Below, piece by piece: positions 896 through 10,998 of a DNA stretch of 64,000 nucleotides. Both the position numbers and the translations under genes were made by a program. Source of the DNA: Patescibacteria group bacterium (GTDB lineage Bacteria; Patescibacteriota; Minisyncoccia; Phycocordibacterales; Phycocordibacteraceae); the NCBI GenBank assembly GCA_030837225.1, contig JAUPKX010000007.1, positions 606-64,605 of the forward strand. Reading direction: 5' to 3'. Within the stretch, counting starts at the first letter, position 1. Each line of letters starts with the position of its first letter. The notes under the pieces were generated by a model. It worked only from the letters and a program-made list of their open reading frames with translations. It had not been told where the DNA came from and made no database searches.

Positions 896-921
896 CCCTT
901 AACTATACACGCCCCACATAG

Positions 922-994
922 TGCTTGGGACAGGACTTGAACCTGCAACCCCTTCCGCTTCAAGGAAATGCTCTACCAATTGAGCTACCCAAGC
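922..994 (-). tRNA. tRNA-Phe(GAA)
   Basis: Cloverleaf read by eye: acceptor GCTTGGG/CCCAAGC, D-arm GCTC..GAGC, anticodon stem TTTCC/GGAAG with loop TTGAAGC, T-loop TTCAAGT; no encoded CCA. Confidence 0.85.
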
Positions 995-1014: not shown

Positions 1015-1710
1015 TTAGAACTGAGCTTTCACCCCCTCTATCCAACCCATTAACCGGTGAAATTGTGGCGTGTTACATACTTCAACTTGGAGAGTTCCCC
1101 ACGGCAAACGGTTATATGGTCTTATACCTTTGCTAGCACTACTAACGAGATTCGTTGTTTTACAAAAATTCTCCTTTAACAAACCAGTACTTTTTAACCA
1201 GTATCGCTGAGCTTCTGCCTCATTAATGTGAGGATAGAGACGCATCGACAAACGGATGCTTTCCGCAGGTATATCCATGACTTTCCTTAAAAAGCTTACG
1301 AACAACGTCACCATTTCGGGATCTGAATTAACAAAACTAATTGCATGCCACGTGCGCTCTTTGCCATTACGAAACTTTGCACGTTTATAACCCTCAGCCC
1401 AATATAGTGACGTCCCAATTAACCTCAAGTTCTCTAGAGAAAGCTTTTCAATTTCACGTTTTGCAGTAGTACGAATTAACCGAGAACGTTCTTCTGCTTC
1501 CTTTGTTTGAAGTTTATTTCGTTTAACTAAACCATTAAGCACTCCTTGATGGACTCGACTATTTAAACGAGCCCGGGCTCTATCAGACAGAACTACATCT
1601 TTTAACCAACCTGAGAGTGTTGCTTTAGGTATACCAAGCTCAGAATTAATCTCATTATAGCTCTTCCCTTTTAGGCGCAGTGCAAGAGCTTTTGCTCGTA
1701 AAGGGTTCAT
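1015..1710 (-). CDS. HTH + single-motif LAGLIDADG-type homing endonuclease-like protein
   Basis: N-terminal sigma-r4-like HTH (KALALRLKGKSYNEINSELGIPKATLSGW); motif LIGTSLYWAEGYKRAKF followed by an I-CreI-like core; visibly AT-richer than flanks; stop 20 nt upstream of tRNA-Phe on the same strand. Confidence 0.55.
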   Translation of the reverse strand: MNPLRAKALALRLKGKSYNEINSELGIPKATLSGWLKDVVLSDRARARLNSRVHQGVLNGLVKRNKLQTKEAEERSRLIRTTAKREIEKLSLENLRLIGTSLYWAEGYKRAKFRNGKERTWHAISFVNSDPEMVTLFVSFLRKVMDIPAESIRLSMRLYPHINEAEAQRYWLKSTGLLKENFCKTTNLVSSASKGIRPYNRLPWGTLQVEVCNTPQFHRLMGWIEGVKAQF

Positions 1711-3771: not shown

Positions 3772-5571
3772 CTAGCGTTCCGAGTCCTGCACCATCTTCA
3801 TAAACACGTCCTGCGGGATGTCCATCTTCGCGTGCTCGCCACGACGCTTCTTTCCCTTCTTTTGCTTCTCGAGAAGTTTCATCTTTCGGGTGATGTCGCC
3901 TCCATAGAGGTATCCCGTAACATCCTTGCGGAGCGCTGAAATAGAACGCGATGCCACGATACGCCCAAGCGCATGCGCCTGAATCTTAAGAACGAACATC
4001 TGGCGCGGCAGAATCTCATGGAGCTTCTCCACCATACGGTCTCCCTCCTCAACAACACGGCGGCGAGACACGACGCGCGCAAATGCCGGCACCGGTTCTT
4101 CCGCAACAAAGATCTCAAGCTTCACAACGTCCGCAGGGCGCTCATCCAAGAACTCGTATGAAAGCGACGCGTACCCTGATGAAGCATTCTTCACCTTGTC
4201 GAAGAACCCGCGCATAAGTTCTCGAAGCGGCATCTCAACCGCAAGCTCAATGCGTCCATCAAGATGCGTCTCGGTCTCGAGCACGTTCCCTTCGTGGTCA
4301 TGGAAGAGCTGGATCATGTTCGAGAGCGAGTCAGGCGGCGTAATAAGCACCACCTTCACCCACGGTTCTTCGATCTTCTCAGTCTCGCCGAACGCTGGGA
4401 ACTTGGACGGCGTGTAGACAGTCTCACGCTTTCCGCGCTTGTCCGTAACAACGTACGCGATGGTGGGAATAGTAACGATAAGCTCGAGATCGAACTCCCG
4501 CTTTAAGCGCTCAATAATAATCTCGAGATGGAGCATGCCGAGGAATCCGCAACGAAACCCGCGCCCGAGCATGCCGGAGGATTCTTCCTCAAAGGTAAGG
4601 GATGAGTCCGAGAGACGAAGACGCTCTAGAGATTGCCGAAGTTCCGTGAGATCGTCCTGGCTCTCCGGATACACCGATGCCCATACAACAGGACGTGGAC
4701 GCTCGAAGCCTTCAAGACCCGTCGTAGATCCTGCGTTCGCTATAACCGTGTCTCCCACATTAACGACACCTGCCTGCTTAACGCCGGTAACCAGGTACCC
4801 AATCTCTCCTGCGGACAAAGACTCAGTCGCAAGCTCATCTGGCATGAAAATACCCGTCTCAAGGGCTGTAAAACGCTCTCCAGCGGCCGCAAACCGAAGT
4901 ACGTCCCCTTTCTTAAATACCCCATCAAACACGCGCATAAAGACCGTAATCCCGCGGTGCGTAGAATAGGAGAAATCGAAGATAAGCGCCCGTGGTCCGC
5001 CCTCGCTCGGTCTCGGGGCCGGAACCTTTGCGATGACTTCTTCAAGGAGAGCCTCGACGCCTTCCCCGGTACGTCCCGAAACCGCGAGCACGCTATCAGG
5101 ATCTACTGAAAGGAGCTCCGCGAGCTCGAGTGACACGTCGTCAGGACGCGCTGCAGGGGAGTCGATCTTAGAAATAACCGGGATAACCACACAGCCCGCC
5201 GCCTTCGCCATCTGAAGCGTGGTTAGGGTCTGCGCTTGAATTCCCTGTGTTGAGTCGACAAGTAAAAGGACTCCTTCGACAGCAGAAAGGGAGCGAGATA
5301 CTTCGTATGCGAAGTCGATATGCCCAGGTGTGTCTATGAGATTTAATACATATTCGGTACCATCCTTTCCACGATATTTCATCTTTGCTGGCTGCATCTT
5401 GATGGTGATGCCGCGCTCACGCTCGAGATCCATTTTGTCGAGAACCTGGTCGCGCATCTTTCGGGCCTCAATGGTGCCAGTTCGCTCCAGCATTCGGTCA
5501 GCAAGCGTAGACTTTCCGTGGTCCACGTGTGCAATGATGCTGAAGTTCCTGATATTACTGAATGGTTCCAT
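3772..5571 (-). CDS. lepA: elongation factor 4 (LepA)
   Basis: 599 aa; G-domain AHVDHGKST, DTPGHIDF; LepA-specific C-terminal domain. Confidence 0.95.
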   Translation of the reverse strand: MEPFSNIRNFSIIAHVDHGKSTLADRMLERTGTIEARKMRDQVLDKMDLERERGITIKMQPAKMKYRGKDGTEYVLNLIDTPGHIDFAYEVSRSLSAVEGVLLLVDSTQGIQAQTLTTLQMAKAAGCVVIPVISKIDSPAARPDDVSLELAELLSVDPDSVLAVSGRTGEGVEALLEEVIAKVPAPRPSEGGPRALIFDFSYSTHRGITVFMRVFDGVFKKGDVLRFAAAGERFTALETGIFMPDELATESLSAGEIGYLVTGVKQAGVVNVGDTVIANAGSTTGLEGFERPRPVVWASVYPESQDDLTELRQSLERLRLSDSSLTFEEESSGMLGRGFRCGFLGMLHLEIIIERLKREFDLELIVTIPTIAYVVTDKRGKRETVYTPSKFPAFGETEKIEEPWVKVVLITPPDSLSNMIQLFHDHEGNVLETETHLDGRIELAVEMPLRELMRGFFDKVKNASSGYASLSYEFLDERPADVVKLEIFVAEEPVPAFARVVSRRRVVEEGDRMVEKLHEILPRQMFVLKIQAHALGRIVASRSISALRKDVTGYLYGGDITRKMKLLEKQKKGKKRRGEHAKMDIPQDVFMKMVQDSER

Positions 5572-6385
5572 GTAGCCTTCGAGTCCTTATGTTTTGTAAT
5601 ACCATATTTGCGTCAGCTCTGCGCTTTTCGTGCTGTAGCCATGGCTCTAAGTAATTAATCAGTTTCTCTAATGAGCCTGCTTCATTTACTGAAATTCGCC
5701 ATAGATCTTCCTTCCATTCCCATCCATAATCGTCTTCTCCTTTTCTAGCGATAATCCGAAACTTGCTATTCAATCCATGCCTTAAGAAAAGAGCGTGTAT
5801 ATCAGAAAGAATTGTGTAATCGTATGCATCGACTTTAAATCTCCCTCTTCCTTGATTTAAGCCAAGCGTTCCTTCGGCATCAATATAACCTGCCGAGAAT
5901 GCCCATTGCAGCATATCGCTTGACGCAAGCCACGTACGTATTTCCGGCGGATACTTCGTAAGTAAAAAAGAAAAGCTTGTATCCAAATAGCACGTCATCT
6001 GAGTACTTCGAGTACCTTCTGAAACTGTTACAGTCCCATATTTTTCAAACAAATTCTTGAAAAGGTTTCCTTGAACAGCATGTGTCGAGTGCGATCGTAC
6101 GACTATGGTTTCCGAAGCTCCTTTAGGCTGGTACACGTTGAGGTCTCCATACCGAAAGCCAAGCATATAGGCCTTCTCTAGATCCGTGCCTGAAAAGTTA
6201 TACTTCTCATAACGCATCTGCGCTGCACTCTTTGTTTTAAGGGGTATCCCAGCTTCTAGAAGACGACTGCGGACTGTAATGGATGTACAACCGTATTCTA
6301 TCGCTATCTTTGCAGGAGACCATTTCTCATTAATATAGAGATGTCGTAGATCCGATTCAGGTATGAGGATTTTTGTCCTTCCCAT
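5555..6385 (-). CDS. HTH + double-motif LAGLIDADG homing endonuclease-like protein
   Basis: Two dodecapeptide motifs (AYMLGFRYGDLNV and AFSAGYIDAEGTLGL); N-terminal HTH; AT-rich relative to flanks; 3' end overlaps lepA start by 17 nt. Confidence 0.7.
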   Translation of the reverse strand: MGRTKILIPESDLRHLYINEKWSPAKIAIEYGCTSITVRSRLLEAGIPLKTKSAAQMRYEKYNFSGTDLEKAYMLGFRYGDLNVYQPKGASETIVVRSHSTHAVQGNLFKNLFEKYGTVTVSEGTRSTQMTCYLDTSFSFLLTKYPPEIRTWLASSDMLQWAFSAGYIDAEGTLGLNQGRGRFKVDAYDYTILSDIHALFLRHGLNSKFRIIARKGEDDYGWEWKEDLWRISVNEAGSLEKLINYLEPWLQHEKRRADANMVLQNIRTRRLHGTIQ

Positions 6386-6432
6386 ACCCTGAATTCTACC
6401 ACACCGTGATCTAGTACAACAATCAATGAAAA

Positions 6433-8115
6433 CTATGCATCCGGACGATCAGAGAGGACGGGTCCGGAAGGCTTGAGCGCGGTCGATGGCTTCATGCGCT
6501 TCAGGGAGTCAACGAGATCCTTGAACTCGCGGTTCGCGAGAAGGGCAAGGACCGCCGCCGCAACCATAAGACCCACCATACCAGCAATGAAGGCCTCGGT
6601 GAAGACAACGAGAAGCGTGGTCGCTGGTGCAAGATTCCCGAGGAACGAAAGCACACCATACGCAGCTGACCCACCAAGGATTGCAGAGGCTGCTCCCTCA
6701 AACATCGGACGGACCAAGGAACGTGCAACACCCGGCGCAACCGCACTGAGCGTAACGAGTGCGAATACGCCCGTTGCTACCGATCCGAGCATGCTGCCAA
6801 GCGCGATGAGAAGGATGGCCGTTCCGGGGACTCCCTCAACACGAAGGAGTGCCTCAACAAAGTACCCAACCGCCGGGAACTGTGCGGACAACATCAGAAG
6901 CCCTACTGCCGAAAGAACGGCCACAACGAGTCCCCCAATCTGAATCAATAATGGGTTCCAGGATTTCTTGGCGGCATAGAACGCGCGGGATGCGAGCAAC
7001 ACAATACCCTGCGCCATAAGACCAATAACAAGGAGCGCGAGTATTGCTGCTGTGAGTCTCGTTGCATCCCAATCAAAGGCACCGGTGCCGAGCACGATAC
7101 GCACAATGTGCGCTCGCAACACGAGAATAAGCACCGAGAGAATCGCAGACCAAAATACAATGTGTCGTGCTGCTGCAGACAACGTCGCCTTGAACGCGTC
7201 GTATCGCTTAGCTTCCATGCTTTCGGCCAAGACCGGGAATGCGGCGGTTGCATAGGACGCGGCAATAAGGGAGAGCGGTACCGCCTGAAGATTCTGTGCC
7301 AGCGAGAACACGGCGATGCTTCCCTCACCCGTTCTTGCTGCAAGGATTGTCAGGATAAGTGCCGTAACCGATCCCATAGCGAGCGCCAGGGAACGTGGGA
7401 CCGAATCGCTCATAACACTCCAAAGCACCTTTGGAGACGGGATAACGAGTCTTGGGAACATCCGTTCCTCAACCAAGACCGGGATATGGATAAGAAGATG
7501 CGCCAAGGCACCCGCCAACACTCCAATACCAATACCAGGAAGGCCATAGAGTGGATACAGGAGCACTGTGCCCGCAATGATGCCGAGGTTGTAGAGCACC
7601 GGCGAAAGCGCAAACAGGAAGAAGCGACGGCGCACCTGCGTCACACTCGTAACAATTCCCGAAAGCCCGAGCAGTATCGGCTGAACAAGAAGGATGCGTG
7701 CGAGTAGCACGAACCCTTCTGCGTTCGGAGAATCAATTGCTGCCGGGAACAACGCAAACAACAACGTCGGCGCGAAGAGCGCGAGCACAAGACACAGCAA
7801 CCCTCCTCCGATAAAGAGGAAGGATGCAGTTTGCGAGATGAGCTCTTGCGATTCTTTTCGTGTTCCTCCCGCTATCCGCGGGATGAGGACGTACGCTGAG
7901 ACTAGGGACGCAACGAGTGCGAACACCAGGTCTGGAACTTTGAATGCTGCGTAGTAGAGATCGAGTACGTCACCCGCCCCGAAGCTGTGGGCGAACAATC
8001 GGTCTCTCAAAAGAGCGAGTGCCTGAGACGCAAGCGTCAGCCCAGCAAGCACGTACGCGGCCTGATGTAGGCCGCGTACGGGTGCTGTAAGCGAGGTGAG
8101 TATCTTTCGTACCAT
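6433..8115 (-). CDS. murJ: lipid II flippase MurJ (MviN family)
   Basis: 560 aa, ~14 TM helices; N-terminal MurJ signature ...DLYYAAFKVPDLVFAL... Confidence 0.8.
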   Translation of the reverse strand: MVRKILTSLTAPVRGLHQAAYVLAGLTLASQALALLRDRLFAHSFGAGDVLDLYYAAFKVPDLVFALVASLVSAYVLIPRIAGGTRKESQELISQTASFLFIGGGLLCLVLALFAPTLLFALFPAAIDSPNAEGFVLLARILLVQPILLGLSGIVTSVTQVRRRFFLFALSPVLYNLGIIAGTVLLYPLYGLPGIGIGVLAGALAHLLIHIPVLVEERMFPRLVIPSPKVLWSVMSDSVPRSLALAMGSVTALILTILAARTGEGSIAVFSLAQNLQAVPLSLIAASYATAAFPVLAESMEAKRYDAFKATLSAAARHIVFWSAILSVLILVLRAHIVRIVLGTGAFDWDATRLTAAILALLVIGLMAQGIVLLASRAFYAAKKSWNPLLIQIGGLVVAVLSAVGLLMLSAQFPAVGYFVEALLRVEGVPGTAILLIALGSMLGSVATGVFALVTLSAVAPGVARSLVRPMFEGAASAILGGSAAYGVLSFLGNLAPATTLLVVFTEAFIAGMVGLMVAAAVLALLANREFKDLVDSLKRMKPSTALKPSGPVLSDRPDA

Positions 8116-10677: not shown

Positions 10678-10992
10678 GGACCGGGCCTGACGATCGCTCT
10701 ACCCTTCGGGGCTAGGGAGGAAAGTCCGAACACAGGCTCTCCGGAGCAGCACGGTAGCGGGTAACGCCCGTCCGCAGTGATGCGCGAGGTGCGAACAGAA
10801 ACGCCCAATGTTGAAAGACTAGGGATCCTCTATGAGGATGGGCTGGCAGCAATGCCAGACTGAAACGGCTAAATCCTTACCTCTGTGCAAGGCCGTGCCC
10901 GCGAAAGCGGGAGCGCCGCTCGAGGCGTACGGCAACGTACGTCCCAGATAGATGGTCGTCCATGACAGAATTCGGCTTATGACCCGGTCCAG
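10678..10992 (+). ncRNA. rnpB: RNase P RNA (bacterial type A, compact)
   Basis: P4 consensus AGGGAGGAAAGTCCGAACAC; 3' region ACAGAATTCGGCTTATGACCCGGTCC pairing with 5' GGACCGGG (P1); about 315 nt. Confidence 0.85.
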
Positions 10993-10998
10993 ATACAT

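What the first reader, a model, noticed from the sequence alone, without database searches (positions are those of the whole stretch)
5555..6385. Free-standing double-motif LAGLIDADG endonuclease gene wedged between murJ and lepA, overlapping the lepA start
- The AT-rich ORF carries two clear dodecapeptide motifs (LGFRYGDL and AGYIDAEGT) plus an N-terminal HTH.
- Its last 17 nt overlap the lepA start codon.
- This is not an intein or intron ORF: lepA is intact and continuous.
- It is therefore an inserted selfish gene translationally coupled to a highly conserved gene, a placement that makes deletion costly.
Basis: partly seen in the sequence, partly recalled or inferred. Interest (0 to 1): 0.6.

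Follow-up and report, generated by a model that had tools for sequence, protein, structure and literature searches.

The report
lepA-targeting free-standing LAGLIDADG homing endonuclease
The ORF is a real, probably active, selfish LAGLIDADG endonuclease gene that has inserted into the start of the conserved translation-factor gene lepA and brought a replacement gene start with it, so it can occupy a protein-coding gene without an intron or intein.

Summary
The ORF (5555-6385, minus strand, 276 aa) and its 17-nt overlap with lepA are real. It is an N-terminal HTH plus a two-domain LAGLIDADG nuclease. Pfam LAGLIDADG_3 scores above its cut-off, the AlphaFold model has pLDDT 93, and the best fold matches are I-DmoI, PI-PfuI and I-AniI. 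Both catalytic acids (D81, E171) are invariant in 42 homologues down to 38% identity.

All 93 homologue loci with enough downstream DNA have lepA directly after the gene, whatever lies upstream. Yet only 2 of 80 related species carry it, and relatives with 98%-identical LepA have a clean empty site.

It is not simply intergenic. In many relatives a remnant of the old lepA start (M..IRNFxIIAH) survives upstream of the gene and always ends at GCACA, inside the P-loop codons. The element carries a new ATG and about 14 replacement codons for lepA.

The roughly 55 nt of lepA after the insertion point match other carriers, not the closest relatives (co-conversion). No carrier allele keeps the canonical IIAHID sequence, which 68 of 77 empty alleles have.

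Longer relatives sit the same way at metG, and next to other genes.

Verdict: a homing endonuclease gene with a 5'-end-replacement design, apparently undescribed. Cleavage and target site are inferred.

The parts
5555..6385 (-). X: free-standing HTH + double-LAGLIDADG endonuclease gene (276 aa). Predicted catalytic residues D81 and E171.
   Evidence: ORF. Pfam LAGLIDADG_3 above its cut-off. Invariant D81 and E171 in 42 homologues. AF2 pLDDT 93.2. Foldseek matches to I-DmoI, PI-PfuI, I-AniI and E-DreI.
5528..5571 (-). Replacement lepA 5' end carried by the element: new ATG plus codons 1-15 (MEPFSNIRNFSIIAH) up to GCACA. The first 17 nt overlap the end of X.
   Evidence: Junction comparison with the empty alleles L015 and L016. 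In relatives the old 5' end survives upstream of X and ends at the same GCACA.
5472..5527 (-). Co-converted lepA tract just 3' of the insertion point, including GTG (Val16) in place of the ATH (Ile) found in empty alleles.
   Evidence: In the first 85 nt, 13 of 14 informative sites group the window with the carrier L018. In the rest of the gene 83 group with L018 and 168 with L015 (by hand count, about 12 of the 13 lie 3' of the insertion point). The tract's best matches are L056, L018, L048 and L037, not L015 or L016.
5516..5538 (-). Inferred position of the homing site, here in its presumably resistant, substituted form: the lepA P-loop codons I-I-A-H|V-D-H-G centred on the insertion point.
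   Evidence: Inference from the fixed insertion point and from canonical II[AS]HID being present in 0 of 61 carrier alleles against 68 of 77 empty alleles. No cleavage data.
6393..6401 (-). Extended -10-like box TGGTAGAAT, 7 nt upstream of the X start codon. Possible promoter carried by the element.
   Evidence: TGnTAnnnT lies 13-25 nt before the X start in 41 of 65 loci. The strict two-hexamer promoter scan found nothing. Function not shown.
6414..6432 (-). Probable decayed remnant of the displaced original lepA 5' end (TTTTCATTGATTGTTGTAC), directly after the murJ stop codon.
   Evidence: Placed by homology of position with clear remnants in relatives (L035/L004 ATGACCGCACGGATCCGTAATTTTAGT..ATTATAGCTCCAC; L110, L128, L116 and others). 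In the window alone it is not significant (p 0.6).
3772..5571 (-). lepA (EF4), intact, 599 aa. The host and target gene.
   Evidence: Pfam GTP_EFTU, EFG_III, EFG_C and LepA_C.
6433..8115 (-). murJ, an incidental upstream neighbour. In empty relatives it abuts or overlaps lepA.
   Evidence: Pfam MurJ. Empty junctions.

Best explanation
X is the gene of a site-specific LAGLIDADG homing endonuclease. It belongs to a compact element of about 890 bp (window about 5528-6413) that is specific for lepA.

Inferred mechanism:
1. The enzyme recognises the highly conserved DNA that encodes the LepA P-loop (..ATH ATH GCN CA|Y ATH GAY CAY GG..) in an allele without the element, and cuts it.
2. The break is repaired from an allele that has the element. 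This copies in a short leader with a -10-like box, the endonuclease ORF, and a replacement lepA start. The replacement start consists of a purine-rich Shine-Dalgarno-like stretch and a new ATG embedded in the last codons of X, plus about 14 lepA codons. About 55 nt of downstream lepA are co-converted.
3. lepA stays intact and is expressed behind X. No intron or intein is needed.
4. The displaced original 5' end remains upstream as a short pseudo-start, usually closed at once by a stop codon. It can serve as the left homology arm and then decays.
5. Because the duplicated 5' end rebuilds the target sequence, carrier alleles carry substitutions at the site (Ile to Val after His, or changes in the two preceding codons). 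These presumably make them uncuttable.
6. The two lepA 5' copies are direct repeats, so recombination between them can remove X cleanly. That would produce the observed cycle of gain and loss.

Shown here: the fold and conserved catalytic residues, the fixed insertion point, the duplication, the patchy distribution with clean empty sites, the mosaic lepA 5' region, and the carrier-specific substitutions.

Inferred only: cleavage, the exact site, immunity, promoter use, and how DNA moves between cells.
For: Identity as a nuclease:
- Pfam LAGLIDADG_3 is above its cut-off.
- AF2 gives pLDDT 93.2 and pTM 0.83.
- The top PDB fold matches are all LAGLIDADG homing endonucleases, E 2e-8 to 1e-6.
- D81, E171, K184 and 28 other residues are invariant in 42 homologues at 38-75% identity.
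- dN is 0.22-0.41 while dS is saturated.

Site specificity:
- 93 of 93 homologue loci with at least 120 nt downstream have the lepA P-loop region directly after X. The X stop lies -26 to +8 nt from the projected lepA codon 1. Upstream neighbours differ.
- 21 of 68 upstream regions encode [IVLT]RNF remnants (reverse-strand control 0; shuffles mean 0.6). 42 of 68 carry T[TC]GCACA ending 18-34 nt before X (controls 0 and 0.4).
- The L035 remnant aligns base for base with the native lepA start of the empty L019 allele.

Mobility:
- Only 2 of 80 related species carry X. L015 and L016 (LepA 98%) are empty, with murJ 8 nt from lepA. No degenerate copies were found.
- GC of X is below that of lepA in 46 of 46 loci, mean -0.12.
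- There is a mosaic breakpoint about 100 nt into lepA (Fisher 1e-5).
- The tract after the insertion point is closest to L018 (carrier) and to L056 and L037, not to L015 or L016.
- The ratio of X divergence to LepA divergence varies about five-fold between pairs (X 72%/LepA 92% against X 76%/LepA 64%).

Site substitution:
- Canonical II[AS]HID occurs in 0 of 61 carrier alleles and 68 of 77 empty alleles.

Generality:
- A 3-HTH relative overlaps the metG start and has the remnant MKNKNNFYITTPIYY| upstream, with a diverged functional copy downstream.
- A 2-HTH relative is again at lepA.
Against: - No biochemical data: cleavage, target and immunity are all inferred.
- No pair of near-identical X genes in divergent hosts was found. 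X and LepA identities correlate moderately (rho 0.44). Much of the history could therefore be vertical descent with losses, or transfer only between close relatives.
- The empty-allele set comes from one clade while the carrier set spans many, so the 0/61 against 68/77 contrast is confounded by phylogeny.
- The breakpoint was chosen after looking at the data.
- The window's own upstream remnant is too decayed to be significant. This particular copy may no longer be able to home across lineages.
- No homologue occurs on viral contigs, and no vehicle for cell-to-cell transfer is evident.
- The strict promoter scan found nothing.
Confidence: 0.75

Rival explanations
1. Relic element. X entered lepA long ago by homing but is now a stranded, vertically inherited passenger in this lineage. 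It is kept because it supplies lepA's start codon, ribosome-binding region and perhaps promoter, and it no longer spreads.
For: - The window's left remnant is decayed and lacks a start codon.
- X and LepA divergence correlate (rho 0.44) and no recent transfer was caught.
- X GC tracks host GC across loci (0.26-0.49), which suggests long residence.
- No terminator or promoter was predicted between murJ and X, so X may simply be read through from murJ.
Against: - Both catalytic acids and 29 other residues are invariant, and dN is far below the saturated dS. A passenger needed only for its last 30 nt should have decayed.
- The lepA tract after the insertion point is carrier-type rather than like the 98%-identical relatives. 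This points to a relatively recent recombination event in this lineage.
- Among 78 empty related species there are no degenerate copies.
Confidence: 0.13
2. Domesticated LAGLIDADG-derived DNA-binding protein, comparable to WhiA, which acts as a regulator or functional partner of LepA and is co-transcribed with it.
For: - Linkage to lepA is strict, with overlapping reading frames.
- An HTH is fused to a LAGLIDADG scaffold, as in WhiA, and WhiA appears among the fold matches (8dy9, rank 47).
Against: - X is present in only 2 of 80 related species, so it is dispensable and patchy.
- The catalytic Asp and Glu are retained in all 42 homologues, whereas domesticated LAGLIDADG proteins typically lose them (background knowledge).
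- The duplicated lepA 5' end, upstream remnants and mosaic lepA are signatures of insertion, not of an operon partner.
- Relatives sit at metG and other genes.
Confidence: 0.06
3. Remnant of an intein or of a group I intron ORF that became separated from lepA.
For: - LAGLIDADG enzymes in bacteria are mostly intein- or intron-borne, and CPR rRNA genes carry intron-encoded LAGLIDADG genes (PMC11270868).
- PI-PfuI and PI-SceI are among the fold matches.
Against: - LepA is a continuous 599-aa ORF with all domains.
- X is in a different frame, with its own start and stop.
- There are no Hint or splicing blocks in the 276 aa: Pfam finds only LAGLIDADG_3 and an HTH.
- Rfam finds no ribozyme in 5200-6800.
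- The insertion is flanked by a duplicated gene start rather than by splice junctions.
Confidence: 0.02

Closest known systems
Monomeric double-motif LAGLIDADG homing endonucleases (I-DmoI, I-AniI, I-SceI type; endonuclease domain of PI-PfuI)
   Same: Two alpha-beta-beta-alpha-beta-beta-alpha domains, one acidic residue at the end of each LAGLIDADG helix, and about 200 aa of core. TM-scores normalised to I-DmoI are 0.6-0.7.
   Different: - Those enzymes are encoded in introns or inteins. X is free-standing in a bacterial chromosome.
- X has an extra N-terminal HTH module, which is tandemly repeated 2-5 times in relatives.
- Sequence identity to any solved structure is 7-18%, and a sequence-only search of the PDB finds nothing.
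LAGLIDADG endonucleases in rRNA-gene insertions of CPR/Patescibacteria (Tsurumaki et al. 2024, PMC11270868)
   Same: Same phylum, same nuclease family, conserved target sites and patchy distribution attributed to homing.
   Different: Those sit in 16S/23S rRNA genes, often within group I introns that are removed from the transcript. X sits in a protein-coding gene, with no intron, and preserves the gene by duplicating its 5' end. That paper does not mention free-standing or lepA-linked genes.
Free-standing homing endonuclease genes of phages (T4 seg and mob genes, F-CphI; 'intronless homing')
   Same: The endonuclease gene lies between or next to conserved genes, cuts the allele that lacks it, and spreads together with co-converted flanking markers. 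Carriers are protected by sequence differences at the site. (Background knowledge; F-CphI in PMC6083498.)
   Different: Those are GIY-YIG, HNH or Endo VII-type enzymes in phage genomes and spread during co-infection. X is a LAGLIDADG enzyme in a cellular chromosome. It is inserted inside the target ORF and carries a replacement gene start.
Partial gene replacement with terminal duplication caused by mobile introns or HEGs in fungal mitochondria (for example Tremella fuciformis, cited in the review PMC8393795)
   Same: Invasion comes with a duplicated N-terminal segment of the host gene and a laterally exchanged gene fragment, which gives a chimeric host gene.
   Different: That case is in organelles and is driven by introns. 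Here it is a bacterial chromosome, no intron is involved, and the duplication appears to be the regular design of a whole protein family (lepA and metG).
WhiA (LAGLIDADG-derived transcription factor with an HTH)
   Same: A LAGLIDADG scaffold fused to an HTH. It appears among the fold matches (8dy9).
   Different: WhiA has a C-terminal HTH, lacks the catalytic acids and is vertically conserved (background knowledge). X has an N-terminal HTH, keeps both acids and is patchy.

Membership tests
LAGLIDADG endonuclease superfamily | Sequence profile match above the curated threshold | tested here: met
   PF14528 LAGLIDADG_3, residues 162-233, 25.0 bits against a cut-off of 22.5, E 2.2e-5. Only the second domain is detected by Pfam.
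LAGLIDADG endonuclease superfamily | Two LAGLIDADG helices, each ending in a conserved acidic residue (the metal ligands) | tested here: met
   Motif 1 is ..GFRxGD81L and motif 2 is ..AGYIDAE171G. G80, D81, D169, A170 and E171 are invariant in 42 sequences.
LAGLIDADG endonuclease superfamily | Pseudo-dimeric alpha-beta-beta-alpha-beta-beta-alpha fold | tested here: met
   AF2 pLDDT 93.2, with the matching order of secondary-structure elements. In Foldseek, 123 PDB matches have E <= 1e-3, and the top ones are all LAGLIDADG enzymes.
LAGLIDADG endonuclease superfamily | Mg2+-dependent site-specific double-strand cleavage leaving 4-nt 3' overhangs | not testable with these tools
   Requires purified protein and lepA substrates.
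Homing endonuclease gene (mobile by homing) | Patchy presence with intact empty sites in close relatives | tested here: met
   2 of 80 related species carry it. L015 and L016 (LepA 98%) are empty, and no remnants were found.
Homing endonuclease gene (mobile by homing) | The same insertion point in a conserved target across hosts | tested here: met
   93 of 93 loci are at the lepA 5' end. Remnants end at GCACA in 42 of 68 loci.
Homing endonuclease gene (mobile by homing) | Co-conversion of flanking host sequence | tested here: met
   Mosaic lepA 5' region: 13 of 14 informative sites are carrier-like in the first 85 nt, against 83 of 251 in the rest of the gene. Tract ranking. The breakpoint was chosen after looking at the data.
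Homing endonuclease gene (mobile by homing) | Phylogeny of the element incongruent with the host (horizontal transfer) | tested here: inconclusive
   rho is 0.44. Relative rates vary about five-fold between pairs, but no near-identical X was found in divergent hosts. No formal tree reconciliation was done.
Homing endonuclease gene (mobile by homing) | The enzyme cuts the empty allele and not the occupied one | not testable with these tools
   Indirect evidence only: canonical II[AS]HID occurs in 0 of 61 carrier alleles and 68 of 77 empty alleles.
Intein | In-frame insertion in the host protein, with Hint splicing blocks | tested here: not met
   X is a separate ORF in another frame. LepA is continuous. 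Pfam reports no Hint domain.
Group I/II intron-encoded ORF | A surrounding self-splicing ribozyme | tested here: not met
   In an Rfam E-value-mode scan of 5200-6800, the only match is a chance MS2 hairpin at E 0.65. The whole-window scan finds RNase P RNA and tRNAs only.
WhiA-like domesticated LAGLIDADG regulators | Loss of the catalytic acids and uniform vertical conservation | tested here: not met
   The acids are invariant and the distribution is patchy.

The most novel reading that the evidence does not exclude
X represents a large, undescribed family of free-standing LAGLIDADG homing endonucleases with modular arrays of 1-5 HTH units. A profile search finds 395 50%-identity clusters at E <= 1e-30 and about 2,100 at E <= 1e-10. 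Members invade the 5' ends of conserved bacterial genes, just upstream of nucleotide-binding motifs (the lepA P-loop and the metG HIGH region; possibly ileS and a P-loop kinase). They do so by carrying a replacement gene start. This would be a third way, besides introns and inteins, for a homing element to live inside an important protein-coding gene without destroying it. It would also create chimeric housekeeping genes in Patescibacteria.
Probability: 0.5. Interest if true: 0.8.

Novelty: new variant of a known kind. Interest (0 to 1): 0.68.

Why it matters
- Homing endonuclease genes are thought to survive inside essential genes only by hiding in self-splicing introns or inteins. Free-standing ones are known mainly between genes of phages and organelles.
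- Here a chromosomal bacterial element appears to solve the problem differently. It duplicates and replaces the first 14 or so codons of its target, so the host gene stays whole.
- If confirmed, this explains a recurrent 'hypothetical protein' upstream of lepA in many Patescibacteria genomes.
- It also shows that even the P-loop codons of a universal translation factor undergo lateral exchange, which is a caveat for using lepA as a phylogenetic marker.
- It gives a natural record of invasion, immunity and loss: remnants, substituted sites and excision footprints.
- It offers a new set of compact meganucleases with add-on HTH modules, whose natural targets can be read directly from the genomes.

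Tried and rejected
- The first MAFFT alignment of filled against empty junctions placed the insertion in the murJ-lepA spacer. This was misleading. The upstream remnants found later put it inside lepA.
- Degenerate X copies were sought in the 78 empty loci with 42 queries. The only weak hits lie inside murJ and are chance.
- A viral-contig scan with the family alignment found no homologue.
- PDB and NCBIfam sequence searches found nothing useful. PHROG hits labelled 'HNH endonuclease' cover mainly the HTH region and are weak.
- The strict sigma-70 and terminator scan of 5300-6700 found nothing. Only an extended -10-like box is noted.
- Pairwise alignment of each upstream region with the same locus's functional lepA start is mostly not significant on its own, including for the window. 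The evidence for remnants rests on the peptide and TTGCACA motif counts with controls and on the L035/L019 alignment.
- dN/dS could not be estimated because synonymous sites are saturated. One pair gave 0.08.
- No paralogue of X occurs elsewhere in the window.
- Literature searches for LAGLIDADG with lepA or Patescibacteria found no description of this gene.
- The second low-GC ORF (1015-1710) could not be classified. hhalign against the X family is not significant, the single-sequence AF2 model is poor, and Foldseek is inconclusive.
Full report
**1.
- The window has a 276-aa ORF at 5555..6385 on the minus strand. It lies between murJ (6433..8115) and lepA (3772..5571), all on the same strand.
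- LepA and MurJ have complete Pfam domain sets.
- The last 17 nt of the ORF (called X here) overlap the lepA start. X ends CAT GGA ACC ATT CAG TAA, and the lepA ATG is embedded in CAT GG.
- X has GC 0.42-0.44 against about 0.55 around it. It is one of the two lowest-GC islands in the 64 kb.

**2. X is a LAGLIDADG protein that looks catalytically competent.**
- Pfam LAGLIDADG_3 matches residues 162-233 above its curated cut-off.
- A search of 5.8 billion proteins found 127 homologues, nearly all 270-280 aa. Every source name given is Patescibacteria: Kaiser-, Yanofsky-, Taylor-, Falkow- and Moranbacteria.
- In an alignment of 42 homologues (38-75% identity), 31 columns are invariant. They include G80-D81 at the end of the first LAGLIDADG helix, D169-A170-E171 at the end of the second, and K184.
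- An AlphaFold model built on that alignment is confident (pLDDT 93.2, pTM 0.83). It shows a three-helix N-terminal bundle followed by two alpha-beta-beta-alpha-beta-beta-alpha domains.
- Its best PDB matches are monomeric LAGLIDADG homing endonucleases: I-DmoI, E-DreI, I-AniI, the I-OnuI family and the PI-PfuI endonuclease domain. WhiA ranks far lower.
- Non-synonymous divergence among relatives is 0.22-0.41 while synonymous sites are saturated. This fits purifying selection.

**3. The partner is lepA, not murJ.**
- Homologues at 74% and 65% identity sit in the same murJ-X-lepA arrangement.
- Homologues at 38-47% identity have MgtE, CorA or a small ORF upstream and still overlap the lepA start.
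- Across the loci fetched by exact-protein look-up, the genome scan and a metagenome scan with the family alignment, 93 of 93 loci with at least 120 nt downstream have the lepA P-loop region directly after X. The X stop lies between -26 and +8 nt of the projected first lepA codon.
- No homologue was found on viral contigs.

**4. The gene is patchy.**
- A scan of one genome per species with the window's LepA returned 80 related species (LepA 58-98% identical).
- tblastn finds X in only two of them, L018 and L035.
- The closest relatives, L015 and L016 (LepA 98%), have murJ followed 8 nt later by lepA.
- A search with 42 family members found no degenerate copies in the empty loci. The few weak hits lie inside murJ.
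- X is lower in GC than the adjacent lepA in 46 of 46 distinct loci, by 0.12 on average.

**5. The element lies inside the ancestral lepA and carries a replacement gene start.**
- The 70 nt upstream of X in many loci contain a short copy of the lepA start. Examples:
  - L110: ATGAATCAATCACATATTCGGAATTTTTGTATTATTGCACAA (MNQSHIRNFCIIA.)
  - L128: MNPENIRNFVIIAH
  - L116: MSHIRNFCIIAH
  - L166: MSNLSKIRNFVIIAH
- These copies are usually followed at once by a stop codon.
- 21 of 68 distinct upstream regions encode [IVLT]RNF in a forward frame (reverse-strand control 0; shuffles mean 0.6, maximum 3).
- 42 of 68 carry T[TC]GCACA ending 18-34 nt before the X start (controls 0 and 0.4).
- The remnant always stops at GCACA, in the Ala-His codons of the P-loop motif IIAH|IDHGKS.
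- In L035, a 74% relative of the window's X, the remnant aligns base for base with the native lepA start of the empty L019 allele.
- The element therefore consists of a short leader, X, and a new ATG plus about 14 lepA codons, inserted after codon 15 or so of lepA. TGnTAnnnT lies 13-25 nt before the start codon in 41 of 65 loci.
- In the window the element spans roughly 5528-6413.
- The window's own upstream remnant (6414-6432) is decayed and not significant by itself. I place it by position only.

**6. Recombination signatures.**
- Over most of lepA the window is closest to L015 and L016.
- In the first 85 nt analysed, however, 13 of 14 informative sites group it with the carrier L018. In the rest of the gene the counts are 83 with L018 and 168 with L015 (Fisher 1e-5; the breakpoint was chosen after looking at the data).
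- By my own reading of those sequences, about twelve of the thirteen sites lie 3' of the insertion point. They are therefore in lepA proper, which fits a co-conversion tract of about 55 nt.
- When all alleles are ranked by identity to that 60-nt tract, L056, L018, L048 and L037 come first. L015 and L016 are not in the top 22.
- L037 and L056 lack X. They nevertheless combine a native-type start with a carrier-type tract, and L056 has a 9-nt IRN-IRN duplication.
- This is what recombination between the two direct lepA 5' repeats would leave after removing X. I offer it as the likely route of clean loss (inference).

**7. A candidate immunity mechanism.**
- The duplicated 5' end rebuilds the sequence around the insertion point, so a carrier allele should be cut unless the site is changed.
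- None of 61 distinct carrier alleles has the canonical II[AS]HID. They have HVD, or Leu/Val/Met/Cys-Gly in the two preceding codons.
- 68 of 77 empty alleles have IIAHID, and the upstream remnants are also of the IIAH/IISH type.
- The contrast is confounded by phylogeny, because the empty set comes from one clade. I treat it as a strong lead, not proof.

**8. Vertical or horizontal?**
- Pairwise identities of X and LepA correlate only moderately (rho 0.44).
- The ratio of the two divergences varies about five-fold. Window against L018 gives X 72%/LepA 92%, while L165 against L171 gives X 76%/LepA 64%.
- No near-identical X in distant hosts was found.
- The data fit repeated homing among related lineages plus loss. 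They do not exclude long vertical stretches.

**9. The wider family.**
- A profile search of 1.84 billion cluster representatives found 395 proteins at E <= 1e-30 and 2,095 at E <= 1e-10. Many are 320-560 aa with two to five tandem copies of the N-terminal HTH module. One protein combines 14 such modules with an HNH domain.
- Contexts found:

| Relative | HTH modules | Context |
|---|---|---|
| P0156 | 2 | Overlaps lepA, whose start reads ..IRNFTLLSHID |
| P0135 | 3 | Overlaps the metG start. Upstream remnant MKNKNNFYITTPIYY|, stopping just before the HIGH region. Functional copy downstream is diverged: FYVTTAIDYVNAEAHIGH |
| P0123 | 4 | 22 nt upstream of a class I aminoacyl-tRNA synthetase gene |
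| P0149 | 2 | Precedes a P-loop BY-kinase-like gene; no remnant seen |

- The 5'-end-replacement design is thus seen at two different genes. The other two contexts are only suggestive.

**10. Comparison with what is known.**
- Membership in the LAGLIDADG superfamily is met on profile, motifs and fold. Activity is untested.
- The comparative criteria for a homing endonuclease gene are met: patchiness, a fixed site and co-conversion. Tree incongruence is inconclusive.
- It is not an intein: X is a separate frame and there is no Hint domain.
- It is not intron-borne: no ribozyme was found.
- It is not WhiA-like: the catalytic residues are kept and the distribution is patchy.
- The nearest precedents are:
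  - phage free-standing endonuclease genes and their intronless homing;
  - the CPR rRNA-intron LAGLIDADG enzymes (PMC11270868);
  - mitochondrial cases where intron mobility produced N-terminal duplications and partial foreign gene replacement (review PMC8393795).
- Literature searches found no report of a lepA-linked LAGLIDADG gene or of this design in bacteria. The searched library is not complete.

**11. Verdict.**
- The anatomy is more interesting than proposed. The target is lepA itself, the element sits inside the old coding sequence, and it brings a new gene start.
- I rate it a new variant of a known kind, interest 0.68, with confidence 0.75 in the homing model.

Noticed in passing
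window 1015-1710 (-), next to tRNA-Phe at 921-994 (-): This is a second low-GC island (GC about 0.41) holding a 231-aa ORF. It has a weak N-terminal HTH (Pfam HTH_23, E 0.002, below the cut-off) and a 'LYWAEGYK' motif that resembles a LAGLIDADG helix. Its stop is 20 nt upstream of tRNA-Phe.

It looks like an insertion of about 730 nt. tRNA-Arg and tRNA-Phe are about 390 nt apart in L015 and L018 but 1117 nt apart here. Homologues occur in only a few loci: L065 at 60% identity, also just upstream of tRNA-Phe, and L052 and L057 at 27-28%, just upstream of tRNA-Arg.

It could not be classified: hhalign against the X family is not significant, the AF2 single-sequence model has pLDDT 60.6, and Foldseek is inconclusive. 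It may be a second site-specific selfish gene.
   Followed up: partly
L180 (metG), L175 (class I aaRS), L178/L179 (P-loop kinase-like), L181 (lepA): Longer relatives of X, with 2-4 tandem HTH modules, sit at the 5' ends of other conserved genes. The metG case has an upstream remnant of the MetRS start (MKNKNNFYITTPIYY) and a diverged functional copy, which is the same design as at lepA.
   Followed up: partly
P0249 (821 aa, from the representative search): This protein has about 14 tandem copies of the same HTH module followed by an HNH nuclease domain. The DNA-binding module is therefore shared between different nuclease families.
   Followed up: no
L056 about 3960-4060; L037 about 3970-4060: Both are empty lepA alleles that carry the carrier-type tract after the insertion point (HVD..ATGCTCGAG..). 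L056 also has a 9-nt IRN-IRN duplication at the start of lepA. This may be a footprint of excision of X by recombination between the flanking repeats.
   Followed up: partly
L115, L117, L137, L123, L106 (70 nt upstream of X): Two lepA-start-like fragments seem to lie in tandem upstream of X..attagaaacttctgcattattgct.. followed by ..tttgtattatttcccat.. (FCIISH). This could record successive invasions. It was not analysed further.
   Followed up: no
L019/L021 about 3985-4010: In some empty relatives the murJ stop codon lies inside the first codons of lepA, so the two genes overlap by about 20 nt in different frames. In L015 and L016 they are 8 nt apart. The native lepA start is therefore itself variable in this clade.
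   Followed up: no
window 10678-10994 (+): Bacterial RNase P RNA class A: 125 bits, matched over 317 nt against a 367-position model. Five tRNA genes are also present in the window.
   Followed up: no
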